Source: Euryarchaeota archaeon UBA557 (GTDB taxonomy: Archaea; Thermoplasmatota; Poseidoniia; Poseidoniales; Thalassarchaeaceae). Taken from it: a stretch of DNA of 64,000 bases. Below, piece by piece: positions 9,415 to 57,659 of this stretch. How positions within the stretch are numbered: position 1 is the stretch's first letter; the number at the start of each line of letters is the position of its first letter. The notes below the pieces were generated by a model that was given only the letters and a program-made list of their open reading frames with translations, was not told where the DNA came from and did not search any database. Both the position numbers and the translations under genes were made by a program. The stretch lies in the NCBI GenBank assembly GCA_002503285.1, contig DARI01000010.1:21081-85080 (forward strand). Reading direction: 5' to 3'.

Positions 9415-9550
9415 GTTTATTCTACGTAGTAGGGAGGACATTAAAACTACTGATTGATTTATGCTTTTATAAGTATAATTATTCATCTCCAACTATAAAA
9501 TATTAATATGCAGGGAACAGGAATATAGGCCATGACTTCTGGGGTTGAAT

Positions 9551-11677
9551 ATGAAAGGAGAGAAGATTCCGGTGATGGAAAATAATCTCAAAAATTTAGA
9601 AGAAGATTCTTTAGATAAAGAATTGGATAAAATAAGAAAGAGGAGATTAAATGCCGACAAAACATTTCTTGTTAATACGATAATTCCTAGAAAAAGTGAT
9701 GACTATACATTGATTTTTGGAGTAGTATGTGGTGCAATATTCTTTGGAGGGATATTCATAACCTCTTCAGGCTTAATAACTCCAGATTCAATCATGGTCG
9801 ATAATAGAATATCAGGGACTTTCTTGGACTCAGAGGACTGTACTGATAGAAGATATGAAGTATACTTTGACATATTTGCAATTGATGAAAATATAAGAAT
9901 TAAAAGTCACCATGTAAATGAAGAATTAACCTCAATTATGATAGTAAATTTTTCAAGTAAGGACGATATAAATAATACATTACAATATGTTTTCGGGGGC
10001 ATAGGCGACCTAGAGAATACATTTGATTCTGAAGATATAAATGATGGTCATTATGAGATAATTGTCAATATTTATATCTATGATGAAGAAGTAAATCTAT
10101 CACATTTATCGAAAGATATTTTATTAAAATACATTGAAAATGGTACTTATATTGATAATATTAGTAAAGATGTCGAACTACATATGGAAAGTAGAGTCAC
10201 TAATGAAATTCCCATTCTTAAAATCATAAGTTTTGGAAATTGGGGGAATTCTGAACTTCAAAAAATTCCAGAAATAAGTGATGAGGAGCCTCGGGCATGT
10301 ATGTCAATACAAGAATTGGGCATTTGGGGCTGGGCATTAATGGGATTAGAATGGGCTGGAGGAAGGGAGACGGCGATGTTGACTGGCGGTAGTGCAGGAG
10401 TCCCCCCTTGGTGGCTAGCTTCGGTATCACTTGGGATGTCAATATTCTTTTTATGCGTTCAATATCCGTTAATGCATAGGTTATACCATAGAGAAGTTGA
10501 TGATTTATTATCAACAAAGCAAATGAAAAGGATGTTACAAAAGGTTTTACAAAAATCTTCTAATGAATTAAGAATTGACTTTGATTTAAATAATTTTAAA
10601 ATACAAGATAGGTCACTTTCAGTAGATGCATTAGTGCATTACAAAACTACAAGCATGACAATAGCAAGTCCAATGGAAGTAAAGACTAGGATGATTACAG
10701 ATATTTTAGAAGAGTTTGCAATATTTGGAGAAATGAGGCCGATTCAATTGAAATCACTGTGTACGGACACAAAAGATTCAAAAGTTTCCAATATAATAAT
10801 TAATTCTCAACTAATATATGATGATTTTGGCCAAATACCTTTATCTGAAGATTACTCAGAATTCTTTGGATCGATAAGTAAATTCGGCAAGCTAGAGGAA
10901 GAATTTAGGGGCGTGATGAAAAAATGGTTTAGACAAAATCATCTTGTAGATTATGGATCGGCAATAATGTCTGATGAAGATTCCGTATTTGTCAGAGTAA
11001 TCTATCAACCTGCGCAAAGATTTGCTTACTTTTCATTCAAATCCAACTATAATGAATTACAAAATAATCTTGAAAGTAACTTAAAAAATAAATTGAAAGA
11101 TCACATGGGCAATAGGACATTAATAGTGAGTGCAAGAAATGAGAAATCAACACTAGCTGACTATGCGAATCCTGGAAGAGTTGAGCAAGGAACAGATGAA
11201 TTAACGGGAGAAGCGATGGTTGCCAAGAGAGGAGGTATCCCTGGAGCATTGTTGCAAAATCCATTCATGGGAGACATTCTTTCTTCTGTTGAATATGTAG
11301 CACTAAAGAACCGTAAGAGAATTGATAAATATGGGTTTTGGGGGCTTATAGTATTCGTTTGGATACCATTCATGGCCAGTGGAGTTTTAGTTGGTGCAAT
11401 GTTAGGATTGGTAGCAAGAATGAGATTTGAGCGAGTTTTGGCTGCTTGCCTTCTCGGAGGATCGGCGGCATCAATAACTTGGGCATATAGTGCAAAGGGG
11501 ATAATAGAATTCATGGAAAAATATCATGCTGAAGCATTTATACCATTCCTGATATTCCTAGTTTTTGCATTTACAATAATTCACCTTAGAAATAATAAAA
11601 GACGAAGAAGAGAGGAATTATTTAGAGATTCAATGGCATTTTTCTCTGGTTCATATTCAACCATAGGCAAGCAATAA
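9551..11677 (+). CDS. Hypothetical multi-domain membrane protein (about 708 aa)
   Basis: Long ORF (ATG 9551; TTG 9545 is also possible). It has one N-terminal TM, an extracytoplasmic domain, a TM pair, a soluble domain of about 270 aa and a C-terminal 3-TM region (FVWIPFMASGVLVGAMLGLV). The C-terminal region weakly recalls COG2426 'small multidrug export'-like membrane domains. Confidence 0.6.
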   Translation: MKGEKIPVMENNLKNLEEDSLDKELDKIRKRRLNADKTFLVNTIIPRKSDDYTLIFGVVCGAIFFGGIFITSSGLITPDSIMVDNRISGTFLDSEDCTDRRYEVYFDIFAIDENIRIKSHHVNEELTSIMIVNFSSKDDINNTLQYVFGGIGDLENTFDSEDINDGHYEIIVNIYIYDEEVNLSHLSKDILLKYIENGTYIDNISKDVELHMESRVTNEIPILKIISFGNWGNSELQKIPEISDEEPRACMSIQELGIWGWALMGLEWAGGRETAMLTGGSAGVPPWWLASVSLGMSIFFLCVQYPLMHRLYHREVDDLLSTKQMKRMLQKVLQKSSNELRIDFDLNNFKIQDRSLSVDALVHYKTTSMTIASPMEVKTRMITDILEEFAIFGEMRPIQLKSLCTDTKDSKVSNIIINSQLIYDDFGQIPLSEDYSEFFGSISKFGKLEEEFRGVMKKWFRQNHLVDYGSAIMSDEDSVFVRVIYQPAQRFAYFSFKSNYNELQNNLESNLKNKLKDHMGNRTLIVSARNEKSTLADYANPGRVEQGTDELTGEAMVAKRGGIPGALLQNPFMGDILSSVEYVALKNRKRIDKYGFWGLIVFVWIPFMASGVLVGAMLGLVARMRFERVLAACLLGGSAASITWAYSAKGIIEFMEKYHAEAFIPFLIFLVFAFTIIHLRNNKRRRREELFRDSMAFFSGSYSTIGKQ

Positions 11678-27494: not shown

Positions 27495-28709
27495 CTAGGT
27501 CCAGTAAGATTCCCGAATTTCTTGATTAGTTTCCATACAAAAAACTACATCCGAGGGTCTATTATTCATAGAATCGGTTCCATTAAGATGTCTTATTATT
27601 GGTAGGACATTGCTTTCATTGACTACGCCCCATCCAACTTGCGTACATGGTGCAACTGGAGAAATTGGTGTTGTGCCTGAAAGGGGGTCCCAAGTTGAGT
27701 AAGAAGGATACCATGCGGACATATTTAGTGCATCTCGGATATCATCATTTGTGATTTTAAAATTCGTCCCATTAATAATATATTTATCTCTGATCAAAGG
27801 ATCAGCCCCTGAAGATGAGTCATTAAATTCATTTCGTAAGTTCATTATAATTTTTGATAACAAACCTGCAGTTCTCGGAGTGGCGAAAGAAGTTCCTGAA
27901 GTTTCATGATATCCATCAATATCATCATGATTGGGTAAAATTTGAGTCCAATCTGACGCCATATCTGGATATGAACCACTCATTGTTTCTTTCTGATCAT
28001 CACCTTCTTCGGCATAGCCCGATATTCCAATACTCCATGGAGGCCCTGCAGTTGAATCTTGAACTGCCGGAGATGGAGAATTGTCTGCAGCACCAGTATG
28101 TATTTTTCCATTTTGAACGACAGCAACTTTAGTTGCGTCTTCGATACCAGGAACTGGGACGGATCCAATAGGCCCGAAACTAGTAGTTATTATGTCCACA
28201 AGAGGTTGATTTGCTGCTGCTAAGACAGCCTCATCACTAAATCCTTCTACAAAGAATATTACTGCATCCGGATTAGCATTCAATACTGCACCTGTCACAG
28301 CCGTCCCATGTCCATCAGCAGGATCATCCAAAATTGGAATATCTGTATCGTCATCAGGAGAAGTTCCGATAATTCTAGTCCCCTGAAACCACACAATATC
28401 TGTAGAAGTAATTAAGTCCCAACACGATTCTTTATCAGATTGATATCTTTCTTCCCATGTTCCATTAGATGCGATATCACAAATCATTGTCACCCCTAAT
28501 CCGTTCAAAAGCCATTCTGGATAATCTTCCTCCATAACAAAATGATCATGATATACATTTATTCCAGTGTCTACAGGGGCAACTACACTGTAAGAGTCGA
28601 AGGTATTTACAACGTTTATTGGTTGATATTCTCCTTCTTTATCCTCAAGACAACCTGACATTGGAGCCAAAATAAAAATAATTGAGAGTGATATAGCAGC
28701 ACTGCGCAT
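27495..28709 (-). CDS. Subtilisin-like S8 serine protease, probable lipoprotein
   Basis: Triad VDTGINVYH (D), DGHGTAVTG (H), SGTSFATPRTAG (S). Lipobox-like LAPMSGC. Start taken at MRSAAISL to avoid overlap with xdhC; the ORF extends to 28766. Confidence 0.8.
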   Translation of the reverse strand: MRSAAISLSIIFILAPMSGCLEDKEGEYQPINVVNTFDSYSVVAPVDTGINVYHDHFVMEEDYPEWLLNGLGVTMICDIASNGTWEERYQSDKESCWDLITSTDIVWFQGTRIIGTSPDDDTDIPILDDPADGHGTAVTGAVLNANPDAVIFFVEGFSDEAVLAAANQPLVDIITTSFGPIGSVPVPGIEDATKVAVVQNGKIHTGAADNSPSPAVQDSTAGPPWSIGISGYAEEGDDQKETMSGSYPDMASDWTQILPNHDDIDGYHETSGTSFATPRTAGLLSKIIMNLRNEFNDSSSGADPLIRDKYIINGTNFKITNDDIRDALNMSAWYPSYSTWDPLSGTTPISPVAPCTQVGWGVVNESNVLPIIRHLNGTDSMNNRPSDVVFCMETNQEIRESYWT

Positions 28710-28734
28710 TTCTTTCCGTCTGATACGGTACTTT

Positions 28735-29577
28735 TCATCCTTCGGAATCATTGTGAAGTTTTTCAAAAGATATTATTTCAGCACAAACTGCTATTGCTAT
28801 TTCTTCCGGAGAATGTGCTCCGATAGAAATGCCGATTGGACATCGAGTTGCATCAATAAGAGATTTTTGAATATTTGATTCCAATGCGGCTTTCTTGAAT
28901 GCCCTCCATTTAGATTTAGACCCTATCGCACCCAATCTAGCCCTAGAATCAATATTCAATAATGATAAAATGCCGATTAGCATATCTTGATCAAGGCTCC
29001 AATCATGGCCAAGTAATAGAATATCAGAAAATCTATTTAAAGAATTATTATCTTCATTTTTTAAGAATTCGTCTATTGAGCAATTATGGATTTCTTCTGC
29101 AAAGGGAAATCGGCCAGAGTTGGCATAATCTTCTCGGATATCAAAGACGCTGTGTGCCCAACCCAATGTATCTGAAGCCAATGCAATAGCTAAACCTACA
29201 TGGCCACCCCCCACAATCAAAATATGTGGCATAGAATCTATTACTTCAATGGCCACCCTTACTTGCCCTCCGCAAAGGCTGTCCAATGGTATTACTTCTT
29301 TGCCTTTGCCATCTTTGTATAATAAAAAAGTATTAATCACCCCTCCTTTTGAAGACATAGGTTTTGGTTCTTTTAGGAGTTTGGTTAGAGCTTTTTCTAT
29401 TTTTAACTCCAGACCAGCCCCCCCAACTGTACCATATTTTTCTCCATTTTTGATTAATGCTAATTTTGCACCAGGTTTACCAGGTACGCTTCCTTTTGAA
29501 TCAATTATGGTTGCAATTGCAACACTATATCCTTGATTTAATTTATCCATAGTCCACGCAAGAACTGCTCGCGTCAT
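28735..29577 (-). CDS. xdhC: XdhC/CoxI-family molybdenum-cofactor insertion chaperone
   Basis: N-terminal VAIATIIDSKGSVPGKPGAKL and a Rossmann-like IVGGGHVG, both typical of XdhC. Confidence 0.8.
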   Translation of the reverse strand: MTRAVLAWTMDKLNQGYSVAIATIIDSKGSVPGKPGAKLALIKNGEKYGTVGGAGLELKIEKALTKLLKEPKPMSSKGGVINTFLLYKDGKGKEVIPLDSLCGGQVRVAIEVIDSMPHILIVGGGHVGLAIALASDTLGWAHSVFDIREDYANSGRFPFAEEIHNCSIDEFLKNEDNNSLNRFSDILLLGHDWSLDQDMLIGILSLLNIDSRARLGAIGSKSKWRAFKKAALESNIQKSLIDATRCPIGISIGAHSPEEIAIAVCAEIISFEKLHNDSEG

Positions 29578-39031: not shown

Positions 39032-39106
39032 GGCCCTCGGAGAGCGTCCACATACCAATTCTTTTCGGTCAGAAAGTATCAATTCAGAATGTCTCTTCGG
39101 CCCATC

Positions 39107-39982
39107 ATGGTGAAAATAATTCAAGTTAAAGTTCCTCTAAAAATAGACTTGGCTGGAAGTTGGACCGATATACAACCATATGCATCTGATTATGGTGGTG
39201 AAGTAGTTAATTTTGCAATTAATGTCAATATCAATTGCGAAATAGAAGTTGAAAATGGAAATTTAAAAAGAGTAAAATATTCTACTGAAATGCCTATTGA
39301 TTTAGAGCTAAAAACAACTGATGGAGTCGATTTTGAATTTTTAACAAAAATAACTGAAGGTATTAAATCTTTGGAGTATCTCAATAAATTTACTTACGAA
39401 TTAGAGAATTTAATAAAAAATACTAGAAATATTCATGAGCCACGGATAAATTCCATAGGTGGATTTAATCATACTTTATTTCTAGGTAAAGAGATTGAAC
39501 CTATGCCTTTTGAACCTATGAAATCGTCAAAAAATTGGTTAAAAAAACATTTTATTATCATTTATAGCGATATTGAAAATAATCCAAGTGAAATCCATAA
39601 AGATGTATGGAATAGATATGAAAATAATGATGAAGAAGTTCTCAAAGGCTTGCACTGCATAAGGGCAGCGGCTAGAGTAATGGCCAATGGCCTTCAAAAA
39701 GACCGTAGGGAATTGGTAGTCAATGCACTAAAGGAAATATCTGCAGGCATTGATTTGATAAGTCCTGAAATCCATAGACCATTTAGAGATGTGATGGATC
39801 CATTGGTCAATAATAAAAGTGTAATAGCATGGAAGGCGCTTGGTTTAGACGGAGGAAAAACATTAGGGATATTGTGTTCACCAAATGGAAAGGAAACTAC
39901 CTTAGAGAGAATTGAGGAAATGGGATGGCAGAATATAGAATGGGATTACAACGAACATGGAATAAAAGTAGTTAAAAAATAA
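39107..39982 (+). CDS. Divergent GHMP-kinase-fold protein (COG2605-like) lacking the canonical ATP-binding motif
   Basis: N-terminal VKVPLKIDLAGSWTDIQPYASDYGGEVVNFAINV, mid GGFNHTLF, C-terminal ALGLDGGKTLGILC. No PxGSGLGSSA motif is found. Confidence 0.6.
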   Translation: MVKIIQVKVPLKIDLAGSWTDIQPYASDYGGEVVNFAINVNINCEIEVENGNLKRVKYSTEMPIDLELKTTDGVDFEFLTKITEGIKSLEYLNKFTYELENLIKNTRNIHEPRINSIGGFNHTLFLGKEIEPMPFEPMKSSKNWLKKHFIIIYSDIENNPSEIHKDVWNRYENNDEEVLKGLHCIRAAARVMANGLQKDRRELVVNALKEISAGIDLISPEIHRPFRDVMDPLVNNKSVIAWKALGLDGGKTLGILCSPNGKETTLERIEEMGWQNIEWDYNEHGIKVVKK

Positions 39983-40035: not shown

Positions 40036-43000
40036 ATGTCCGTACTTATTATGATGCGCCGTAGAGGGTTTTTGGCTTCAGTGCTCATCATAGTTCTGAT
40101 AGTCCCTCTGGCTTCATCCTCAATATTACCAACTAAAAAAACAGATGGCGGACTAGATGCTGACGGAGAATGGCAGAGTAGTATGGAATCTGGCATCCAC
40201 AACGAGTGGTGGTTAGACTGGAGCAGAGATAAAAACAATAATATGTTAGATGATAGATTAGAATGGTTATTAGAACAAACCGCAGAAATTCAACAAAATT
40301 GGTGGAAAAGAGCACCTAATGGTAGTTCAAGAGTAATCGTAGATTATGATCATCACCCTAGTAATAAAGATATAGAGGCACTAGAGGATATTGGAGCAGA
40401 AGTAACATTTAGGCCAATTTATCTTGATAGTGTAATCATAACAATACCATTTGAACCTATTTTGGACATAAATGGAATTCGCTCATTACAAGGAGTTGTG
40501 ATGATTGAAGATTTAGGATTGGCAGAACCAAATATGCATGAAGCAGTTCCTAATATGGGAGTAAATGGAGTTTGGGAAGATTTTGGATTAGACGGTACTG
40601 GTTCGACGATAGCAATTCTAGATACTGGAATTAGAGGAGATCATGAAGGTCTAAATGATATGGATGATGATCCGCTAACATGCGTAACTGAGCCTCCTGA
40701 TCCTTTAAACCCAAATCCTCAACCAATATCGGATTGTGATCCGAAAATTATAGGATTTTTCGATGCAGTATTCACTGATGATGAACAAGATCCAGCATCA
40801 TCATATGATTCTGGGACACACGGCAGTCATGTTGCTGGAATTGCAGCCGGAAGTGGAGGAGGGCAAGTTGACCCAATTAGTGGAATAAGATATATTGGAG
40901 CTGCCCCTGGTGCATTTCTAATAAATATATTAGCATGCTGCGATGGAGACATTGAAGATATTATTCAAGGTGCGGAATGGGCCATAGAAAATAAAGAAAA
41001 ATACGGCATAGATATTTTGACATCTTCACTTGGTGAACAGCAAGTTGAGATTCATTTTGATAATGATGGCAGTTCAGCATGGAGTAGGCAGATGGATTAT
41101 GTTGTTGAATCTGGAATAATTACCACATTATCTGCTGGAAATGAATTTGGAGGAGCCACTTTTGCTGGCTGTAACACAATCGACAGTCCTGGAGATGCAG
41201 AATTACCGGTAACTGTTGGAAGTTTGGATAAAGATCTTGGTTTGGCAATTTATAGCAGTAGAGGATATACCTCAGATTTACGAGTTAAGCCTGATGTAGC
41301 AGTAATAGGGTCAAATATAATGGCTCCGGATGCTGCAACGAGTGATGGATATATTAGTAAATCTGGAACAAGTATGGCAACTCCCTTGATGGCAGGAATT
41401 GCAGCTTTGATGGTACAAGCAAATCCAGATTTGACCCCTGAAGAATTTAAAGACATCATTCGTGCAGATTCTATTGAAAGGGAATTGACCCTGCTTAATG
41501 ACCCAGGATTAAATGATTGTAGTATAATTGAGACTAGGCCAGATAATGAATTTGGATACGGGCAGGCAGATCCTGTAAAATTTGTAGAATCAGCGGGAAG
41601 TATCGATCGTTCGCTAAATATTTCAATGGATATAGAGACTTTGCAGGTAATAGGTAACCAGAGTTATGTTGGAGGATTTTCTTCTGGAGCAGCACCTGGA
41701 CAAGGAGAAGTCCAAGTAAGAGTTGGCGGAGGTATTTGGAAAGGCGCGGCCGATCTTACTGGAGATTGGAGTGAATGGAGAGTAAAACTTGAGCCGCATG
41801 AACAATCTGGGAACTCTACAATATATGCAAGGTTAGTGATGAGTGAAGATAGTATTTCTCCAGTGGATGCGAAAAGAGTTATACTTATTGATGGAGTTTC
41901 CAAAAGTGGAATTGTAAATGGAGAATTGATATCAATGGGATCATTTATATTCTTCTTTCCATTTATTATAGTCCTAGGAATATTAGCATATGTGATGATT
42001 AATGAACGATGGATAGATAAAATGAAGTCCAATAAGGCATCAAGTAATGTTGAATTAGTATCAAATTATTCAAAAATAGATATGAAATCATTTAACATAT
42101 TTATTTGGTTTGAAAAAATAAATAAAGAATGGAACAATGGGACTTCATTGATTGAGAATCAATTTAGAAGATACATTTCTTTGTGTGTTTTATATATTGC
42201 CCAAGGATTACCTGCAGGTTTTACATATGTAGCATTTGTAGCATATCTTACCGACAATGGGACCCCTCCTGCAGATATAGCGATATTATTTGCAACTGTT
42301 GCCCTTCCTTGGACATTCAAATTTATTTGGGGACCATTAATTGACTTGCTCGTGATTCCCGAGTATGGGATAAGGCGCCCTTGGATCTTATTTGCACAAT
42401 CTGGAATGGTAATATCATTATCAACATTATTATTTATTCCAAATATTGTTGATTCCATAGCATTAGTAACGATATTATTATTCATACATAATCTATTTTC
42501 ATCGCTACAAGATGTAAGCGTAGATGCTTTGGCTGTTGACGTATTAAGGCCGGACGAAGTTGCTAAAGCGAATGGATTTATGTTTGCATCTAAGAGAGGT
42601 GGAATGATTTTTGGAGGAGCAGTCCTAGGGTTATTAGTTGTACCTTACGGCATTAAATCTGCGATAATGCTACAAATACCAATATTAATGATTATGATGA
42701 GTTTGCCACTTTTCCTACGTGAGAAACCAGAGAATAAACTATTCCCATGGGAAAGTAGCAGAGAAGAAAATGAAATAACTTTACAAGAAGATGAAGTGAT
42801 TAAAACTTCAGAATTGACATGGGAGGGAGATGATAATCCACGTTTCAAAGGTGCTAGATGGGCAGCAAATAACATATATCATAATAAAATTAGTATTACT
42901 GCTGCATTTTTGTGGATTGGAATTATTACGTGGGTATTTGGAAGTGCAATAAACATAATTCATTTGATCGCGCACCCTTATCCTGATGGATCACTTCATG

Positions 43001-43887
43001 GCCCATTAGTTACATTATCATATGTCGGAACATTTGGATCATACTGTATCTTAATATCAATAATAATGATGATAATCGAGGCATTGGGAACTAAATTACC
43101 AATAGTCACTAGTCCGTTAGCATTTTCATCACCAGAATCTAAAAAGAATATTGCTACAACAATCTACCATATCGTTCAAGGTTTTTCAACGAGATCTTCA
43201 TTTCTTTTAATATTTTTATGCCTGCTTTCCGATCTTGCATTATTTGTTGATCCAATTGTAATTGATATTTTTATTAATGAGGCTGGATGGTCACAAGGAA
43301 AATACAATGCGATAGTTGGCGGAATTGTAGTATTATTCACAATGTTAGGCCAAGTAATAGGTGGAATCATAGGAGATCGGTATGGAGTAAGGGAAGTTGC
43401 CATGGTTGGATTTACCCTTCTTGCTTTGGCTAATGCTGGCCTGGCATTGTTGAATGGGTACTGGACAGATACGACCGTAATGACATTTTATCTATGTGTT
43501 AAAGCAGTAATATATGGAATAGCATGGATATGCGTAATATCTGTTTCAATGCGATTAACATTCAGTAAAGCTGGTGGCACTCAATTTACTGCATACATGT
43601 CAATGTTCAATCTTTCTGCAGTTTTTGCATACCTATTTTCCGGTAAAATGATTGCTGCATTTGATTATCTGACTATGTTATACATAGGTGCAGCATTAAC
43701 TATGATATCTGTAATAATGCTAGTATTCATAGACCCCGATGAAACTGATAGAGTTTTGGAAGGTAAGTTAGAGCAAGAAGATAATGGCGATAATGGAGGA
43801 GACTTTGGAGAAGGGCTTTGGCCAACTGACGGAGAATCAATTGATGCAGATATTCTTGGAGGTAATGACAATGTCACAATTGCATGA
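40036..43887 (+). CDS. Fusion: secreted subtilisin-like S8 protease + single TM + AmpG/PAT-family MFS permease
   Basis: Signal peptide and an I9-like propeptide. Triad D196 (AILDTG), H262 (THGSHVAG), N369 (SAGNE), S446 (SGTSMATP). TM at about residues 633-655. MFS part carries AmpG-type motifs QGLPAGF, FKFIWGPLIDL, GIRRPWILF, SSLQDVSVDALAVDVL. Confidence 0.85.
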   Translation: MSVLIMMRRRGFLASVLIIVLIVPLASSSILPTKKTDGGLDADGEWQSSMESGIHNEWWLDWSRDKNNNMLDDRLEWLLEQTAEIQQNWWKRAPNGSSRVIVDYDHHPSNKDIEALEDIGAEVTFRPIYLDSVIITIPFEPILDINGIRSLQGVVMIEDLGLAEPNMHEAVPNMGVNGVWEDFGLDGTGSTIAILDTGIRGDHEGLNDMDDDPLTCVTEPPDPLNPNPQPISDCDPKIIGFFDAVFTDDEQDPASSYDSGTHGSHVAGIAAGSGGGQVDPISGIRYIGAAPGAFLINILACCDGDIEDIIQGAEWAIENKEKYGIDILTSSLGEQQVEIHFDNDGSSAWSRQMDYVVESGIITTLSAGNEFGGATFAGCNTIDSPGDAELPVTVGSLDKDLGLAIYSSRGYTSDLRVKPDVAVIGSNIMAPDAATSDGYISKSGTSMATPLMAGIAALMVQANPDLTPEEFKDIIRADSIERELTLLNDPGLNDCSIIETRPDNEFGYGQADPVKFVESAGSIDRSLNISMDIETLQVIGNQSYVGGFSSGAAPGQGEVQVRVGGGIWKGAADLTGDWSEWRVKLEPHEQSGNSTIYARLVMSEDSISPVDAKRVILIDGVSKSGIVNGELISMGSFIFFFPFIIVLGILAYVMINERWIDKMKSNKASSNVELVSNYSKIDMKSFNIFIWFEKINKEWNNGTSLIENQFRRYISLCVLYIAQGLPAGFTYVAFVAYLTDNGTPPADIAILFATVALPWTFKFIWGPLIDLLVIPEYGIRRPWILFAQSGMVISLSTLLFIPNIVDSIALVTILLFIHNLFSSLQDVSVDALAVDVLRPDEVAKANGFMFASKRGGMIFGGAVLGLLVVPYGIKSAIMLQIPILMIMMSLPLFLREKPENKLFPWESSREENEITLQEDEVIKTSELTWEGDDNPRFKGARWAANNIYHNKISITAAFLWIGIITWVFGSAINIIHLIAHPYPDGSLHGPLVTLSYVGTFGSYCILISIIMMIIEALGTKLPIVTSPLAFSSPESKKNIATTIYHIVQGFSTRSSFLLIFLCLLSDLALFVDPIVIDIFINEAGWSQGKYNAIVGGIVVLFTMLGQVIGGIIGDRYGVREVAMVGFTLLALANAGLALLNGYWTDTTVMTFYLCVKAVIYGIAWICVISVSMRLTFSKAGGTQFTAYMSMFNLSAVFAYLFSGKMIAAFDYLTMLYIGAALTMISVIMLVFIDPDETDRVLEGKLEQEDNGDNGGDFGEGLWPTDGESIDADILGGNDNVTIA

Positions 43888-44161
43888 ATGGATTGAAAAA
43901 ACTGAGACTGAATTCATATTATTTTCCCAGACAATTTGCCCATATTGTAATTTGGCAAAGAGATTATTAAAATCAAAAAAATTATCATTTACCGAAGTAA
44001 ATCTTGATCATCACGAAGGATTGAGGAATTCAGTAGTAATGGAAACGGGACATAGGACCGTACCAGTAATATTTGATTTAAGGAATCCTAAGCCATTATT
44101 TATCGGAGGTTCGGACCATTTAATCAGGTATTTTAAGGATATAAAAAATAGTAAAAAATAG
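43865..44161 (+). CDS. grx: Glutaredoxin
   Basis: CPYC active site, TVP and GG motifs of the thioredoxin fold. Start taken at MTMSQL, overlapping the upstream stop by about 20 nt. Confidence 0.8.
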   Translation: MTMSQLHEWIEKTETEFILFSQTICPYCNLAKRLLKSKKLSFTEVNLDHHEGLRNSVVMETGHRTVPVIFDLRNPKPLFIGGSDHLIRYFKDIKNSKK

Positions 44162-54263: not shown

Positions 54264-57200
54264 CTACTCCTCAAAGAGTGCTTCGATGTCATCTTCGGAT
54301 AAAATGGCATTTGGAGTGAGTATTTGTTTTTCCAATGTACTAGATTCAATTGCATGATTATTTTTTAATTCTGAAGTATCAGATGCCATATCTGCATAAT
54401 TAATTGACTTATTGGAACCAATAGAATCGAATAATTGGTCTAAATTCGAATCCTTTAATTTATTATTTGTTGTTTTATCATCCTCCTTATTTCTATATCT
54501 AATTGATAAAAATACTCCTCCCGTAGAAATTAAAATTAAAAGCAAGATTGTAGAAGAATTTTCTTTTATTCTATTTTCGAAATTAAGCGGTGCTTTTGAC
54601 ACATCGACTACCATGGTTATTGAATTACTCTCAGATTCATCATAAACAGTCAATTTTACTACTTTTTTTCCTTCATCATCATAAAATACCTGTATCCACC
54701 TTCCAATCATGTCAATATCATTTGAAGGATTTCCATCGCCATCAGAATCTAATGAAGTATCTATATCCCAATGATAAATCATATTTTCTATATCAAATTC
54801 AGAATCAATAGTTCCGTTAGCAGATAAAGAAATAGCCTGTCCTTGTTGAGGGTTTAGGTTATTTGTTGATGCTACAGCCGTCGGCCTAGTGTTTCGAATA
54901 TCAATATCTATATTGACAAAATCCCTGCTACCGTCATCATCCGTCACATGAAAAATTATAAACTCTGGGGCCGATACAGAATCTTCCCAAATATAGGATA
55001 AATAAGTAGAGGTGAAATCACAATCATCATCCTCGTTTCCGAGCAAGTCAGAATTAACCGATGGATCAATATCAAAGCATGAAGTCAGAGAATCTACATC
55101 ATTAGGAGTATCAATAACTCCAATATCAAAAATCAATTCTTCTCCTTCTTGGACCGGTAGTCTTGGACTAATTGAAACAACATAAGGGGCGATATTTTCT
55201 ATTTCTATGGGTATAATCAATGTTTTTGTTTCTCCTTCAAAGACAGTAGATTCATTATCATTATCAAAAATTTGTAAAGTTGCTAGTTGGAGTCCTGCAA
55301 ATCCATAAGTATGATTTATCTCGCCCATAATGCCATAACTAGTTAGTTCCAACTCAGGATTATTTTCAGCATCTGGGGACCATATATATTGAAGAGAGTT
55401 CATGTCATTCTCTGAATCTGTAACCCACGCTTTTAAAGTTAGGATTTCTCCTTCTTTGGCTGCAAAAACTCCCCTATTATCAGGAGTTATCTTATTTGGT
55501 CCAGACCAAACTTCAATTTTCGGATCAAATGGTGCAATGTTAGTGGCCATGACTGAAGAAGAGGCGAATGTAATTGCCCCGTCATCATCAATTGCGGATA
55601 CATTAATGCTAAATTCCCCCTCATTAAGAGGGGTGAGAGTACACTTAGTACTTATTTGCCCTTCCTTACAATTAGGATTATCCCATAATATATCAACTGG
55701 AGAATTCGGAGATTGGGTATCTAAATCAATTCTTTCAATAATTTCAAATGTAACTTCAGAAAATACTGTAACTGATGTTTTGTCTGAAATTAATGTTATT
55801 TGAGGAGGCCTATTTACAATTGAAATAGAAGACATAAATGTGTCTTGGTCGTTTTCTTCATCGGTAATTGTCAACAGTATCTGAAATTGTCCATCATCAT
55901 CCCATTTAGCCTCATAAATACAATCTTCTTCAAAAAAGTTTTCGAAAATATTTATTGATATTTCAATATAAAAATCACAAAAGTATGATCCTCCATCCGA
56001 GTCATAAGAGGTTGTTCCATTCAAAGTTATTTCATCCAATGTTAATATTTCGGTCGGGTGTTCCAAAGCTGCAATTGGAATTGTACCTATAAAAAGAGTA
56101 AAAATTCCATAATTATTGGATTTATTTCCATCTTGGATGAGAGTTTCGTCAGGATCAACTAAAAATTCCAAATAAACTGAGCCATATGATTGTTGAAATG
56201 GGACTGTCCAATTTACTTCTATCCTAGATTCTTGGAGGCTTGACAAGGGAGGGACTATCGCAAATAGTGTATTTCCATCAGGAGAATCAATTTTAAGATT
56301 AGAGGAGGGAGAAGATATTAATCCCTTATTGGCTACGGGTACTGAAAATACCAGTATATCTCCATAAACGGCAGTAAAGCCAATGTTCGTATCCAGAGTC
56401 AGAGTGCTATTATTTCTAGTTCTTTGGACGGTTACTCCTTCTGCCCTTGTTACCAAATCAATTTCATGTATGTTTAAATTTGTACTAACTGATACCGCCC
56501 CCAATATTGGCGAAGATTGATTAGCCCAAACAATAATTCCATGACTTGCTAAATCATCCACTGAAGCGGTTGTATCAGTGCTATTTCCAGTATTAAATTC
56601 TAAGTAATAAGACCCATTTTGATCAGTAGTAAAACTTCTTACGTCATCTTCTATTTCATATCTAAATTCTAGTTCTAAATCCGATACAGGCGTACCTTGA
56701 TTAGTCACATTTATCCATGCATATATATCAGTATCAATGGGAGATAATGGGTATTCTAAATCAATATTAATTTCTTTAAATCTTGTTACTGGTTGGTAGG
56801 CAACTAATTCATGTACTGCTTTAAATCCTAGACTTTGAGTAAAAGAAGATATAATATCTCCATTTATTGCAGGACAGTACCACCTATATCCTGATTCTTC
56901 GCCATCTCCATTGTAAGTTGTAATATTATATGATTGGCCACATCCAGCATAACTTACGCCTGAAAATCCTTGAGAGACAGTTTGCCATGAAGAAGTATTG
57001 TCGTCTTCGGAATTATCAGGAATATCTACATAATTACTAGAGCCGCTATAGGTAGTTTCTTGATGATAATCAGAATCCCACGATTCCCCTACATTCAATG
57101 GAAAATCCAAACCTTCGAGAGCAGGATAATAACTATTATTTAATATTAAATCCGCTACATCTATATTTACGCACCACCAAAATAAATCTGCACAAAAGTC

Positions 57201-57659
57201 GATTTCTATAGATGCTTCTTGTGAAACAGTTGCCATATCTGAAGCACGTATTATTTCAATTGTATTAATGTTAACTGAGATATCGCCATTTTGACCATCT
57301 AATTCTACATCGTTGGCTGCGTATTCTCCAATTGACTCAACTTTGTATGTTAATGATGATTGATTATCTATGATTGATAAGAATATTGAGGTTACAGTTT
57401 TATCCAGTGTCCCATTGAGATAATTTACAGTAGTAGATATCCCAGAAGAAGTTATGAAGTCCCCAACATCCAAATATCCAGAATACATCCAATTATCATT
57501 AATTTGCCATGTTTGAACATCGATTATTCCGGATTGAGAATTAGTTTCTACGCCATATACAAAGTTTTCATCTAATTGTTTTTGATCGAAAATATTAGAT
57601 AAAAGAGGTGAAATCAGAATAAAACAAATAAGAAATGTAATTCGGCCAGACTTCTCCAT
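54264..57659 (-). CDS. Large secreted surface protein with PKD/Ig-like repeats, C-terminal TM and cytoplasmic tail
   Basis: Signal peptide ITFLICFILISPLLSNIF. Repeated PKD-like signatures (SYDSDGG…, AIDDDGA, VTDDDGS, VYDESES). TM ILLLILISTGGVFLSI followed by an acidic tail of about 90 aa. Confidence 0.75.
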   Translation of the reverse strand: MEKSGRITFLICFILISPLLSNIFDQKQLDENFVYGVETNSQSGIIDVQTWQINDNWMYSGYLDVGDFITSSGISTTVNYLNGTLDKTVTSIFLSIIDNQSSLTYKVESIGEYAANDVELDGQNGDISVNINTIEIIRASDMATVSQEASIEIDFCADLFWWCVNIDVADLILNNSYYPALEGLDFPLNVGESWDSDYHQETTYSGSSNYVDIPDNSEDDNTSSWQTVSQGFSGVSYAGCGQSYNITTYNGDGEESGYRWYCPAINGDIISSFTQSLGFKAVHELVAYQPVTRFKEINIDLEYPLSPIDTDIYAWINVTNQGTPVSDLELEFRYEIEDDVRSFTTDQNGSYYLEFNTGNSTDTTASVDDLASHGIIVWANQSSPILGAVSVSTNLNIHEIDLVTRAEGVTVQRTRNNSTLTLDTNIGFTAVYGDILVFSVPVANKGLISSPSSNLKIDSPDGNTLFAIVPPLSSLQESRIEVNWTVPFQQSYGSVYLEFLVDPDETLIQDGNKSNNYGIFTLFIGTIPIAALEHPTEILTLDEITLNGTTSYDSDGGSYFCDFYIEISINIFENFFEEDCIYEAKWDDDGQFQILLTITDEENDQDTFMSSISIVNRPPQITLISDKTSVTVFSEVTFEIIERIDLDTQSPNSPVDILWDNPNCKEGQISTKCTLTPLNEGEFSINVSAIDDDGAITFASSSVMATNIAPFDPKIEVWSGPNKITPDNRGVFAAKEGEILTLKAWVTDSENDMNSLQYIWSPDAENNPELELTSYGIMGEINHTYGFAGLQLATLQIFDNDNESTVFEGETKTLIIPIEIENIAPYVVSISPRLPVQEGEELIFDIGVIDTPNDVDSLTSCFDIDPSVNSDLLGNEDDDCDFTSTYLSYIWEDSVSAPEFIIFHVTDDDGSRDFVNIDIDIRNTRPTAVASTNNLNPQQGQAISLSANGTIDSEFDIENMIYHWDIDTSLDSDGDGNPSNDIDMIGRWIQVFYDDEGKKVVKLTVYDESESNSITMVVDVSKAPLNFENRIKENSSTILLLILISTGGVFLSIRYRNKEDDKTTNNKLKDSNLDQLFDSIGSNKSINYADMASDTSELKNNHAIESSTLEKQILTPNAILSEDDIEALFEE

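What the first reader, a model, noticed from the sequence alone, without database searches (positions are those of the whole stretch)
40036..43887. Extracellular subtilase fused in one ORF to an AmpG/PAT-family MFS permease (possible 'cleave-and-import' module)
A 1,283-codon frame runs without interruption through AT-rich DNA, where random stops are frequent.

N-terminal half:
- signal peptide
- I9-like propeptide
- complete S8 residues (D196, H262, N369, S446)
- a beta-sandwich domain

A single TM follows at about residues 633-655. The C-terminal half (about residues 712-1232) is a polytopic MFS domain. Its motifs match the AmpG/peptide-acetyl-CoA-transporter family: QGLPAGF, FKFIWGPLIDL versus E. 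coli AmpG FKFLWSPLMD, GIRRPWILF versus GRRRGWLL, and SSLQDVSVDA versus SASQDIVFDA.

The topology is self-consistent: protease outside, one TM, MFS N-terminus inside. This suggests proteolysis physically coupled to uptake of its products. Bacterial AmpG imports anhydromuropeptides. An archaeon without murein must use the permease for something else, perhaps peptides or glycopeptides. I know of no characterised protease-MFS fusion. A glutaredoxin gene overlaps the 3' end.
Basis: partly seen in the sequence, partly recalled or inferred. Interest (0 to 1): 0.75.

Follow-up and report, generated by a model that had tools for sequence, protein, structure and literature searches.

The report
Archaeal surface protease fused to permease
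Marine Group II/III planktonic archaea encode, as one conserved 1,283-residue protein, an outward-facing subtilisin-type protease joined by a single membrane helix to an AmpG-like transporter; this probably lets the cell cut up outside protein and take in the pieces before they diffuse away, though no one has tested that.

Summary
ORF 40036..43887 (+) encodes, in order: signal peptide, I9-type propeptide, complete S8 subtilase (D196/H262/N369/S446 invariant), beta-sandwich, one TM helix, cytoplasmic linker, and a 6+2+6-helix MFS. AmpG is the MFS's nearest solved relative by sequence and by fold.

It is not a chimera. 72 of 72 complete loci from different GTDB species, including single-cell genomes, carry one uninterrupted ORF. 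The fusion extends to Marine Group III at 46% identity.

New context: this MFS clade in Poseidoniia is a modular "ectodomain – 1 TM – MFS" platform. Sister proteins carry an M28 aminopeptidase, a cupredoxin, or unassigned ectodomains instead of S8.

The MFS is not an AmpG orthologue. It scores 143 bits against a cut-off of 350. N-lobe residues K62, D125, D129 and R153 are kept; C-lobe D238, E326 and R365 are not.

"Cleave-and-import" is the best-supported mechanism (about 0.45) but is only inferred. The M28 fusions support it. The cupredoxin and unknown-domain fusions show that the MFS is not protease-specific.

I found no description of this fusion in the searchable literature. It is a new variant of known kinds. 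Interest is moderate to high.

The parts
40036..43887 (+). Whole gene: S8 subtilase - TM - PAT/AmpG-like MFS fusion, 1283 aa plus stop
   Evidence: ORF list. Full-length homologues in more than 120 clusters at 90% identity. One uninterrupted ORF in 72 of 72 complete species loci.
40036..40122 (+). Signal peptide (aa 1-29): RRR n-region, hydrophobic core 13-31, conserved P24...A-S-S28
   Evidence: Hydropathy peak of 2.55. P24 and S28 are invariant in the family. The cleavage site was not predicted with a dedicated tool.
40129..40320 (+). Conserved N-terminal segment (aa 32-95) with WWxxWSRDxNxNxxDDxLEW motif; function unknown
   Evidence: Invariant W58 W59 W62 S63 R64 D65 D72 D73 E76 W77. The segment is shared with stand-alone S8 relatives. 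No Pfam hit.
40321..40524 (+). I9-type subtilisin propeptide (aa about 96-163), beta-alpha-beta-beta-alpha-beta
   Evidence: Profile A4 against PDB: Tk-subtilisin propeptide E 1.2e-6, BPN' prosegment 1.6e-3, subtilisin E propeptide 8.6e-3. Secondary-structure order in the model, pLDDT 63-84. Weak alignment to the Tk-SP propeptide.
40594..41562 (+). Peptidase S8 catalytic domain (aa 187-509). Catalytic codons: D196 = 40621-40623, H262 = 40819-40821, N369 = 41140-41142, S446 = 41371-41373
   Evidence: PF00082 at 145 bits, profile positions 1-288 of 288. The four residues are 99-100% conserved in 121 sequences. Best PDB hit is 3afg Tk-SP, E 7.7e-39.
41563..41886 (+). Beta-sandwich domain (aa 510-617)
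   Evidence: Six strands at pLDDT 60-75 in the model. Ig-like and beta-sandwich fold hits, and a 3afg alignment over about 609 columns. No Pfam hit.
41887..41943 (+). Short extracellular tether (aa 618-636, about 19 residues)
   Evidence: Lies between the last strand and the TM in models m821484e38db3 and m85e117ef918f.
41944..42003 (+). Single connecting TM helix (aa 637-656)
   Evidence: Hydropathy peak of 2.78. Helix 11-30 of the C-half model. F639, P642 and F643 are invariant.
42004..42159 (+). Cytoplasmic linker (aa 657-708): variable sequence, K+R 8, one short helix
   Evidence: Identity to the query is 0.30-0.39 per bin. Loop charge count. Model.
42160..42714 (+). MFS N-lobe, TM1-6 (aa 709-893). 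Motifs: QGLPAGF; FKFIWGPLID (K762); GIRRPW (motif A); SLQDVSVDA (D826, D830); KR (K853, R854)
   Evidence: MFS_1 and Acatn. Alignment to E. coli AmpG residues 16-183. Residue map. Model helices.
42715..43131 (+). Central cytoplasmic loop plus two extra TM helices (aa 894-1032; helices 954-979 and 988-1016); poorly conserved
   Evidence: Hydropathy. Model. Identity 0.21-0.48.
43132..43725 (+). MFS C-lobe, TM7-12 (aa 1033-1230)
   Evidence: TIGR00901 coverage to residue 1231. Model. Top four Foldseek hits are AmpG structures.
43726..43884 (+). Cytoplasmic acidic tail (aa 1231-1283), beginning with the subfamily motif FIDPDETDRVLEG
   Evidence: Invariant D1233-P-D-E1236, D1238 and R1239. The motif IDPxxTRRxL is shared with fused and stand-alone relatives.
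43865..44161 (+). Glutaredoxin (CPYC) gene, overlapping the 3' end by about 17-23 nt; a conserved partner
   Evidence: PF00462 at 51.9 bits. GGAGG at 43858-43862 precedes ATG 43865/43871. Immediately downstream on the same strand in 77 of 77 loci.
39089..39982 (+). Upstream GHMP-kinase-like gene, same strand; common but not universal neighbour
   Evidence: Weak PF00288 on orthologues. Present immediately upstream in 67 of 79 loci. No Pfam hit for the window copy.

Best explanation
The gene encodes a membrane-integral 'ectoprotease-permease'.

**Shown from sequence and comparison**
- A Sec-type signal peptide leads the N-terminal half out of the cell.
- That half is a zymogen subtilase: I9 propeptide, intact S8 catalytic domain and a beta-sandwich, as in Thermococcus Tk-SP.
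- About 19 residues after the beta-sandwich, a single TM helix returns the chain to the cytoplasm.
- A linker of about 50 residues leads into an MFS with both termini inside.
- This MFS belongs to the AmpG/PAT branch. It keeps motif A and the buried K762-D826/D830 charge set.

**Inferred**
- The propeptide is autocleaved after folding.
- The mature protease stays covalently tethered within a few nanometres of the outward-facing mouth of its own permease.
- It cuts dissolved or particle-bound protein.
- The MFS takes up the resulting small peptides, probably driven by an ion gradient, before they diffuse away.

This would be a covalent 'selfish uptake' device for a free-living planktonic heterotroph. 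The fusion plausibly arose when a subtilase with a C-terminal TM anchor was joined to a downstream MFS gene.
For: **Architecture and topology**
- Domain calls and TM and helix positions.
- K+R in short loops is 21 inside against 1 outside under this topology.
- The ectodomain is strongly acidic, with 100 D+E against 36 K+R.

**Active protease**
- The catalytic triad and oxyanion Asn are 99-100% conserved.
- The propeptide is confirmed by profile search.

**Working transporter rather than an inert anchor**
- The MFS lobes are 66-87% identical to the query per 40-residue bin across 120 homologues.
- They remain 47% (N-lobe) and 32% (C-lobe) identical in the Marine Group III orthologue.
- Buried charged residues equivalent to AmpG K62, D125, D129 and R153 are invariant in the S8-MFS family.

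**Fusion under selection**
- One ORF in 72 of 72 complete loci from different species, including SAGs.
- The fusion is found in Thalassarchaeaceae and in Marine Group III.

**Independent support for peptidase-permease coupling**
- An unrelated peptidase family, M28, is fused in the same position to the sister MFS clade in about 57 clusters.

**Origin**
- The nearest stand-alone subtilases, P0133 and P0135, end in a single C-terminal TM anchor.

**Ecological and mechanistic fit**
- MGII genomes are repeatedly described as degraders of extracellular protein, with S8 and M28 ectopeptidases (PMC6864105, PMC6336850).
- Characterised close relatives of this MFS branch, AmpG in particular, are proton-driven importers (PMC12214514).
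- An AmpG that docks its product-generating enzyme has been reported (PMC13507758).
Against: - No experiment or expression data bears on substrate or direction of transport.
- The same MFS clade carries a cupredoxin (P0132) or unassigned ectodomains (P0124, P0125, P0130, P0131, P0275). One such protein, P0124, is nested among the S8 fusions with a 69% identical MFS. The MFS therefore does not need a protease.
- An S8 endopeptidase and an M28 aminopeptidase would yield different products.
- The AmpG C-lobe residues for substrate and proton relay (D238, E326, R365) are not conserved. Coupling and substrate cannot be transferred from AmpG.
- The N-half structure model is poor (pLDDT 43.6). The geometry between the active site and the permease mouth is therefore unknown.
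- Dedicated peptide importers are already annotated in MGII: an oligopeptide transporter is present in most genomes (PMC6336850).
Confidence: 0.45

Rival explanations
1. Anchor or scaffold model. The MFS transports something unrelated to proteolysis, or nothing. The fusion only keeps the ectoenzyme on the cell surface of an organism without an outer membrane. The MFS clade serves as a general N-terminal docking platform for assorted exoproteins.
For: - The clade carries functionally unrelated ectodomains: S8, M28, a type-1 copper cupredoxin and at least three unassigned domains.
- Ectodomains have been swapped on closely related MFS modules. P0124 (unkA) and P0121 (S8) share a 69% identical MFS.
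- Stand-alone members of the same subfamily exist in MGII and in Planctomycetes.
Against: - A single TM helix is enough to anchor the nearest stand-alone subtilases (P0133, P0135). A 570-residue polytopic domain is therefore an expensive anchor.
- The MFS keeps motif A and its buried charges and is conserved nearly as well as the protease.
- Two or possibly three independent peptidase-MFS unions (S8-clade A, M28-clade B, M28-divergent) look non-random.
Confidence: 0.3
2. Export-and-process model, the mirror image of the main explanation. The MFS exports a precursor, either a peptide or another molecule. The tethered S8 protease matures it outside the cell, as LanP-type subtilases do for lanthipeptides or C39-ABC exporters do for bacteriocins.
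For: - Extracellular S8 leader peptidases and protease-transporter fusions exist in bacteria (my own knowledge; not tested here).
- One PAT-family member, SLC33A1, moves its substrate out of the cytosol. It is among the nearest solved relatives.
Against: - The neighbourhood holds no precursor or modification genes. It contains riboflavin genes, a GHMP-like kinase, a glutaredoxin, a hydrolase and an H+-PPase.
- The gene is a syntenic core gene in at least 139 species, which is unlike secondary-metabolite loci.
- M28 aminopeptidase and cupredoxin paralogues do not fit leader removal.
Confidence: 0.07
3. Assembly chimera, read-through of a missed stop, or frameshift joining two separate genes.
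For: None found.
Against: - More than 120 full-length clusters at 90% identity come from JGI, ENA, NCBI, Tara and Logan assemblies.
- All 72 complete loci from different GTDB species, including single-cell genomes AG-422-I22, AG-343-E09 and AG-422-I18, have one uninterrupted ORF of 1173-1353 codons.
- The connecting TM and flanking residues are conserved: F639, P642, F643, E657, R658, W659.
Confidence: 0.01

Closest known systems
AmpG anhydromuropeptide permease (E. coli / Yokenella; PDB 9c3f, 8zgz, 9j9z, 8zbb)
   Same: - Nearest solved relative of the C-half by sequence (E 2.4e-10) and by fold (top four Foldseek hits, E 2e-12 to 6e-8).
- Shares the FKFxWxPxxD, GxRRxW and SxQDxxxDA motifs.
- AmpG K62, D125, D129 and R153 are conserved as K762, D826, D830 and R854.
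- Both have extra helices beyond the 12-TM core.
   Different: - Only 20-22% identical.
- 143 bits against the TIGR00901 cut-off of 350, and 55-76 bits against equivalog cut-offs of 656-756.
- AmpG D238, E326 and R365 align to L1069, K1156 and A1195 (the C-lobe alignment is weak).
- The extra helices sit centrally (6+2+6) rather than at the C-terminus (6+6+2, PMC12214514).
- The host has no murein (established knowledge).
- AmpG has no fused enzyme.
Tk-SP and Tk-subtilisin of Thermococcus kodakarensis (PDB 3afg, 2e1p, 3a3p)
   Same: - Best sequence and fold match of the N-half (E 7.7e-39; Foldseek E 6.7e-11 over about 609 columns).
- Same order of N-propeptide, S8 domain and C-terminal beta-jelly-roll or sandwich.
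- The propeptide profile hits the Tk-subtilisin propeptide.
   Different: - Tk-SP is a soluble secreted enzyme with no TM or transporter.
- The archaeal fusion has a 60-residue conserved pre-propeptide segment and a Cys-containing insert between D196 and H262.
M28 aminopeptidase-MFS fusions of Poseidoniia (P0129 family, 844-960 aa)
   Same: - Same layout: signal peptide, peptidase ectodomain, one TM, acidic linker, PAT-like MFS with a C-terminal IDPxxTRRxL motif.
- The MFS is about 40% identical.
   Different: - Unrelated peptidase family: a metallo-exopeptidase.
- 12-TM MFS without the two central helices.
- Equally uncharacterised.
Acinetobacter baumannii AmpG1-Slt coupling (PMC13507758)
   Same: A member of the same transporter branch is physically coupled to the extracytoplasmic enzyme that makes its substrate. 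This couples cleavage with import.
   Different: - The coupling is non-covalent, through a periplasmic domain of AmpG1.
- The enzyme is a lytic transglycosylase and the substrate is a muropeptide.
- The host is bacterial.
Peptidase-containing ABC transporters (PCAT; C39 peptidase fused to bacteriocin exporters) - from my own knowledge
   Same: A protease and a transporter in one polypeptide that act successively on the same substrate.
   Different: - Cytoplasmic cysteine peptidase.
- Primary active ABC exporter.
- Opposite direction (cleave and export).
- No homology: no C39 or ABC domain in the Pfam scan.
SLC33A1 / AT-1 acetyl-CoA transporter (PDB 9m0s, 9mun)
   Same: Second-nearest solved relatives (E 2.5e-8). 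Pfam Acatn hit at 28.4 bits against a cut-off of 23.7.
   Different: - The match covers only the first 150 or so of 546 profile positions.
- Eukaryotic ER protein.
- No ectodomain.

Membership tests
Peptidase family S8 (subtilases) | Catalytic Asp-His-Ser in that order, plus an oxyanion-hole Asn, in the DTG / HGT(S)H / SGTSMA(T)P motifs | tested here: met
   D196 (ILDTG), H262 (THGSHVAG), N369 (SAGN) and S446 (SGTSMATP) are 99-100% conserved in 121 sequences.
Peptidase family S8 (subtilases) | Score above the Pfam PF00082 gathering threshold over the full profile | tested here: met
   145 bits against a cut-off of 21.8, profile positions 1-288 of 288.
Peptidase family S8 (subtilases) | N-terminal I9-type propeptide (intramolecular chaperone and inhibitor) | tested here: met
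   Pfam I9 gives no hit. Family profile A4 hits the Tk-subtilisin propeptide at E 1.2e-6, the BPN' prosegment at 1.6e-3 and the subtilisin E propeptide at 8.6e-3.
Peptidase family S8 (subtilases) | Proteolytic activity and autoprocessing | not testable with these tools
   Needs expression and an activity assay.
Major facilitator superfamily | Score above the Pfam MFS_1 threshold, and two six-helix lobes with cytoplasmic termini | tested here: met
   MFS_1 at 116.7 bits against 33.4. The model has 6+2+6 helices and pTM 0.65. More than 300 MFS structures match at E <= 1e-3. The positive-inside count is 21:1.
Major facilitator superfamily | Motif A between TM2 and TM3 | tested here: met
   D770...G778-x-R780-R781-P-W is invariant in the family and aligns with AmpG D70...G78-R-R-R-G-W.
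AmpG muropeptide permease (TIGR00901 / NF008238 / NF008867) | Score at or above the curated NCBIfam cut-off | tested here: not met
   TIGR00901 143 bits against 350. NF008867 76 against 656. NF008238 55 against 756.
AmpG muropeptide permease (TIGR00901 / NF008238 / NF008867) | N-lobe substrate and proton residues K62, D125, D129 and R153 (PMC12214514) | tested here: met
   These map to K762, D826, D830 and R854, all invariant in the S8-MFS family. Y152 maps to K853.
AmpG muropeptide permease (TIGR00901 / NF008238 / NF008867) | C-lobe residues D238, E326 (proton acceptor) and R365 (substrate), essential in AmpG (PMC12214514) | tested here: not met
   They align to L1069, K1156 and A1195, and no fused relative keeps them, apart from a D at the D238 column in the divergent P0454. 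Caveat: the C-lobe alignment is weak (6 bits; MAFFT).
AmpG muropeptide permease (TIGR00901 / NF008238 / NF008867) | Substrate GlcNAc-anhMurNAc(-peptide) available in the organism | not tested
   Archaea lack murein (established knowledge). No lytic transglycosylase or murein genes were looked for.
PAT / acetyl-CoA transporter family (Pfam PF13000 Acatn; TC 2.A.1.25) | Score above the PF13000 gathering threshold | tested here: met
   28.4 bits against 23.7, but only profile positions 5-149 of 546. JGI names relatives 'PAT family ... AmpG'.
Poseidoniia 'ectodomain-TM-MFS' family (defined here) | Signal peptide, ectodomain, single TM, linker, PAT-like MFS ending in IDPxxT(R/D)RxL | tested here: met
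   This layout is seen in Q, P0123, P0124, P0125, P0129, P0130, P0131, P0132 and P0275. Their MFS domains cluster apart from the bacterial stand-alone members in an NJ tree.
Peptidase-containing ABC transporters (PCAT) | C39 peptidase domain plus ABC transmembrane and ATPase domains | tested here: not met
   No such domains in the Pfam or NCBIfam scans. The resemblance is an analogy only.

The most novel reading that the evidence does not exclude
Poseidoniia (MG-II/III), among the most abundant planktonic archaea, have evolved a lineage-wide family of covalent ectoenzyme-permease fusions: S8-MFS, M28-MFS, cupredoxin-MFS and others. In these proteins an extracellular processing enzyme hands its product directly to its own secondary transporter. 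This would be the first case of protease-to-MFS product channelling. It would also be a molecular basis for 'selfish', loss-free use of dissolved protein in the open ocean.
Probability: 0.35. Interest if true: 0.8.

Novelty: new variant of a known kind. Interest (0 to 1): 0.62.

Why it matters
Extracellular hydrolysis is a public-goods problem for free-living plankton, because products diffuse away. MG-II archaea are major consumers of marine protein, yet how they capture hydrolysis products is unknown.

A conserved core gene that welds a subtilase, and in paralogues an M28 aminopeptidase, to a permease offers a concrete, testable mechanism. It is one polypeptide that can be expressed, mutated (S446A, K762A, D826A) and reconstituted.

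It also matters in three other ways:
- It extends the AmpG/PAT branch of the MFS to archaea without murein, which implies new substrates for that branch.
- It parallels the recently reported AmpG1-Slt coupling.
- It shows that current annotations split or hide a composite function. Records are named 'MFS transporter', 'hypothetical protein' or 'M28 family peptidase', and genome surveys count peptidases and transporters separately.

Tried and rejected
1. **Chimera or frameshift.** Rejected.
2. **Pfam Inhibitor_I9.** No hit even at E <= 10 on the isolated segment. The question was resolved with a family profile against PDB.
3. **AlphaFold2 model of residues 1-700.** Poor (pLDDT 43.6), because the 40-sequence alignment was shallow. 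Only secondary structure and the 3afg match were used.
4. **Tat export.** The window protein has RRRGFL, which resembles RRxFL. The family consensus is 'MxGRxxxLAS', so the twin-arginine motif is not conserved. Sec export is assumed.
5. **Census of ectodomain types with P0128 as query.** The list was saturated by proteins at least 88% identical. It did show that P0128 (474 aa) is a truncated call of proteins of about 700 aa.
6. **Identity of the unassigned ectodomains (unkA in P0124/P0125/P0130; unkB in P0131).** No Pfam or PDB match.
7. **P0454-type 'M28 family peptidase' C-half.** Only a weak PAT signal: Acatn 22.5 bits against a cut-off of 23.7, and hhalign probability 44%. It is treated as tentative.
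8. **Literature.** Six searches found no description of a subtilase-MFS or M28-MFS fusion. Only open-access papers and bioRxiv are covered, so absence is not proof.
9. **LanP-like export-and-process reading.** Given low weight, because the neighbourhood has no precursor or modification genes and the gene is a syntenic core gene.

Full report
**1. The observation**

The window holds an ATG-initiated ORF at 40036..43887 on the + strand, 1283 codons long. The surrounding DNA is 35-39% G+C. At that composition about 6.8% of random codons are stops, so by my own arithmetic an open run this long has a chance of about e^-90.

Pfam finds Peptidase_S8 at residues 187-509 (145 bits, full profile). It also finds MFS_1 (116.7 bits) and Acatn/PF13000 (28.4 bits) from residue 716 onward. 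The best NCBIfam hit is TIGR00901 'AmpG family muropeptide MFS transporter'. It covers residues 711-1231 and profile positions 4-415 of 417, at 143 bits against a cut-off of 350.

In a MAFFT alignment of the query with 120 homologues, H262, N369 and S446 are invariant and D196 is kept in 99%.

**2. Anatomy and topology**

- **Hydrophobic segments.** Hydropathy gives an N-terminal segment at 13-31 after an RRR n-region. A very strong peak follows at 637-655, and then a series of MFS helices.
- **C-half model.** The AlphaFold2 model of residues 627-1283 has pLDDT 65 and pTM 0.65. It shows one isolated helix (637-656), a linker with a short helix, six helices, a long loop, two extra helices (954-979 and 988-1016), and six more helices.
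- **Positive-inside rule.** With the ectodomain outside, K+R in short loops is 21 on the cytoplasmic side and 1 outside.
- **N-half model.** The model of residues 1-700 is poor (pLDDT 43.6). Its best fold match is still ProN-Tk-SP (3afg), aligned over about 609 columns. 3afg is also the best sequence match (E 7.7e-39).
- **Propeptide.** Pfam I9 does not fire. A profile built from the pre-catalytic region of 14 family members (A4) does hit known propeptides. These are the isolated Tk-subtilisin propeptide chains (E 1.2e-6), the BPN' prosegment (1.6e-3) and the subtilisin E propeptide (8.6e-3). The I9-type propeptide is therefore real.
- **Beta-sandwich.** Residues 510-617 are modelled as strands at pLDDT 60-75 and match Ig-like folds.

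**3. Is the fusion real and conserved?**

The word-indexed search of 5.8 billion proteins returned 609 hits at E <= 1e-10. The best 120 are all 1255-1317 aa apart from one 1072-aa entry (P0089), are 63-97% identical, and carry both Pfam domains. They come from JGI, ENA, NCBI, Tara and Logan.

A scan of one genome per GTDB species found 139 species encoding a relative. The best 80 loci are nearly all labelled Poseidoniales, Thalassarchaeaceae, Marine Group II or unclassified archaeon. They include single-cell genomes AG-422-I22, AG-343-E09 and AG-422-I18. One hit, L069, sits in a bin labelled Neomarinimicrobiota. The nearest genome is Thalassarchaeaceae MAG_46 at 96% (L008).

In my own scan, all 72 loci not cut by a contig end carry a single uninterrupted ORF of 1173-1353 codons containing the S8 serine motif. 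The 16 loci first listed as 'other' simply have variant MFS motif spellings.

At 50%-identity clustering of 1.84 billion representatives, the family collapses to very few full-length clusters: P0121 at 61% and P0123 at 46%. The P0123 cluster is annotated 'Marine Group III euryarchaeote'. The fusion therefore spans the class Poseidoniia.

Against that MG-III orthologue, the S8 domain is 59% identical, the MFS N-lobe 47% and the C-lobe 32%. Both halves are under constraint. Only the cytoplasmic linker and the central MFS loop drift.

**4. A wider family**

The nearest MFS relatives outside the S8 fusions are also N-terminally extended:

| Protein | Length | N-terminal ectodomain |
|---|---|---|
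| P0129 | 869 aa | Peptidase_M28 |
| P0132 | 660 aa | Type-1 copper cupredoxin |
| P0124, P0125, P0130 | 882, 770, 727 aa | Cys-rich domain of about 230 aa with no Pfam or PDB match |
| P0131, P0275 | 715, 699 aa | Other unassigned domains |

All share the order signal peptide, ectodomain, one TM, linker, MFS.

The M28-MFS architecture is itself conserved in about 57 clusters at 55-100% identity. A further M28 group of about 860-908 aa (the P0454 type) has a polytopic C-half with only a weak PAT signal.

An NJ tree of the MFS domains groups the MG-II fused proteins into two clades:
- **Clade A:** S8 fusions with unkA fusions nested among them. The P0124 MFS is 69% identical to that of P0121.
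- **Clade B:** M28, cupredoxin, unkA-like, unkB and unkC.

The MG-III S8 fusion (P0123) branches outside both clades, and the divergent P0454 type lies outside the group altogether. Bacterial stand-alone relatives (Pirellulales, Phycisphaerales) and one MG-II stand-alone form are 30-42% identical. E. coli AmpG is 20-22% identical.

A C-terminal motif IDPxxT(R/D)RxL marks the whole subfamily, fused or not.

The nearest stand-alone subtilases, P0133 and P0135, end in a single C-terminal TM anchor. This suggests how the fusion arose.

**5. Relation to AmpG**

AmpG structures are the nearest solved relatives by sequence and are the top four Foldseek hits.

The AmpG literature defines K62, D125, R153 and R365 as substrate residues. 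It defines D125, D238 and E326 as protonation residues (PMC12214514).

In a MAFFT alignment, K62, D125, D129 and R153 map to K762, D826, D830 and R854, all invariant in the S8-MFS family. D238, E326 and R365 map to L1069, K1156 and A1195. The C-lobe alignment is weak.

With the sub-threshold family scores, this files the domain in the AmpG/PAT branch but not as an AmpG. Its substrate and coupling cannot be copied from AmpG.

**6. Context**

The order GHMP-like kinase, fusion, glutaredoxin is conserved.
- A CPYC glutaredoxin lies immediately downstream on the same strand in 77 of 77 loci with enough flank.
- The GHMP-like gene lies upstream in 67 of 79 loci.
- Downstream of the glutaredoxin the gene content varies.
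- In the window, the likely Grx start (ATG 43865 or 43871, after GGAGG at 43858-43862) overlaps the fusion gene by 17-23 nt rather than 104.

**7. Mechanism**

Shown: an outward-facing, catalytically intact zymogen subtilase is covalently tethered by about 19 residues and one TM to a conserved, transport-competent-looking MFS.

Inferred: after propeptide removal, the protease cuts extracellular protein next to the permease, which imports the products.

In favour:
- Independent peptidase-MFS unions: S8 with clade A, M28 with clade B, and possibly a third.
- The cost of a 570-residue 'anchor' when one helix suffices for relatives.
- Conservation of the buried charges.
- The importer habit of the branch, and the AmpG1-Slt precedent (PMC13507758).
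- The known proteolytic lifestyle of MG-II (PMC6864105, PMC6336850).

Against:
- Cupredoxin and unknown ectodomains occur on the same MFS clade, and ectodomain swapping is evident.
- S8 and M28 would yield different products.
- There is no experimental or expression evidence.
- The geometry is unknown.

I put cleave-and-import at about 0.45, a generic anchor or unrelated-transport model at about 0.3, and export-and-process at about 0.07. An artefact is essentially excluded.

**8. Novelty**

Both domain families are well known, and JGI's pipeline already labels some copies 'subtilisin family serine protease/MFS family permease'.

I found no paper that describes or discusses the fusion. MG-II genome surveys count S8 and M28 peptidases and transporters separately.

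This is a new variant of known kinds, embedded in a previously undescribed lineage-specific family of ectodomain-MFS proteins.

Noticed in passing
window 2878..9492 (-): A giant 2204-aa ORF combines a Peptidase_S8 domain (aa 303-664) with several RCC1-like beta-propeller domains (PF25390 at 508 bits; 11-12 RCC1 repeats) and an ephrin-receptor-like module. It is a second, very different surface subtilase in the same 64 kb.
   Followed up: partly
window 27495..28766 (-): A 423-aa ORF with a weak Peptidase_S8 match (28.5 bits). It is the third S8-like gene in the window. I did not check its catalytic residues.
   Followed up: no
window 43865..44161 (+), and L001-L087 downstream of the fusion gene: A CPYC glutaredoxin overlaps or abuts the 3' end of the fusion gene in 77 of 77 loci across 54-97% identity, while genes further downstream vary. 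This suggests an operon partner. A role such as reduction of imported disulfide-containing peptides is pure speculation.
   Followed up: partly
P0132 (660 aa) and its cluster members P0527-P0531, on contigs up to 1.2 Mb: A type-1 copper cupredoxin ectodomain (YVCEPHEAMGM) is fused through one TM to the same MFS clade. An electron-transfer domain tethered to a secondary transporter is odd. The RhtX/FptX siderophore-transporter model is the second-best NCBIfam hit for this MFS branch.
   Followed up: no
P0124, P0125, P0130 (N-terminal roughly 230 aa): A Cys-rich ectodomain (FWGEE..ECWNxFD..GYGEIEFPEG..FRMYYSD) has no Pfam or PDB match. It occurs on both MFS clades. One copy sits on a 1.5-Mb contig (P0469).
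   Followed up: partly
P0448-P0463 and P0454 (about 860-908 aa, 'M28 family peptidase' in Thalassarchaeaceae): An M28 ectodomain 54-65% identical to that of P0129 is joined to a different, highly divergent polytopic C-half. That C-half carries an AmpG-like FFLRPLWAQPVDR...GRRRSWML motif but has only borderline PAT scores.
   Followed up: partly
window aa 32-95 of the fusion (nt 40129-40320), also in stand-alone relatives P0133, P0153, P0154, P0173: A conserved WWxxW(S/T)RDxNxNxIDDxLE motif lies ahead of the I9 propeptide. It resembles a Ca-binding DxNxN loop. It is not in any Pfam model.
   Followed up: no
L069 (NZWI01000049.1): A 66%-identical copy of the fusion, with the archaeal ribB and GHMP-like neighbours, sits in a MAG labelled 'Candidatus Neomarinimicrobiota bacterium'. 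This is most likely a mis-binned MG-II contig.
   Followed up: partly
window 54264..57659 (-) and 9545..11677 (+): A 1131-aa CARDB/PKD surface protein, and a 710-aa protein with a C-terminal 'small multidrug export' domain. I did not examine either further.
   Followed up: no
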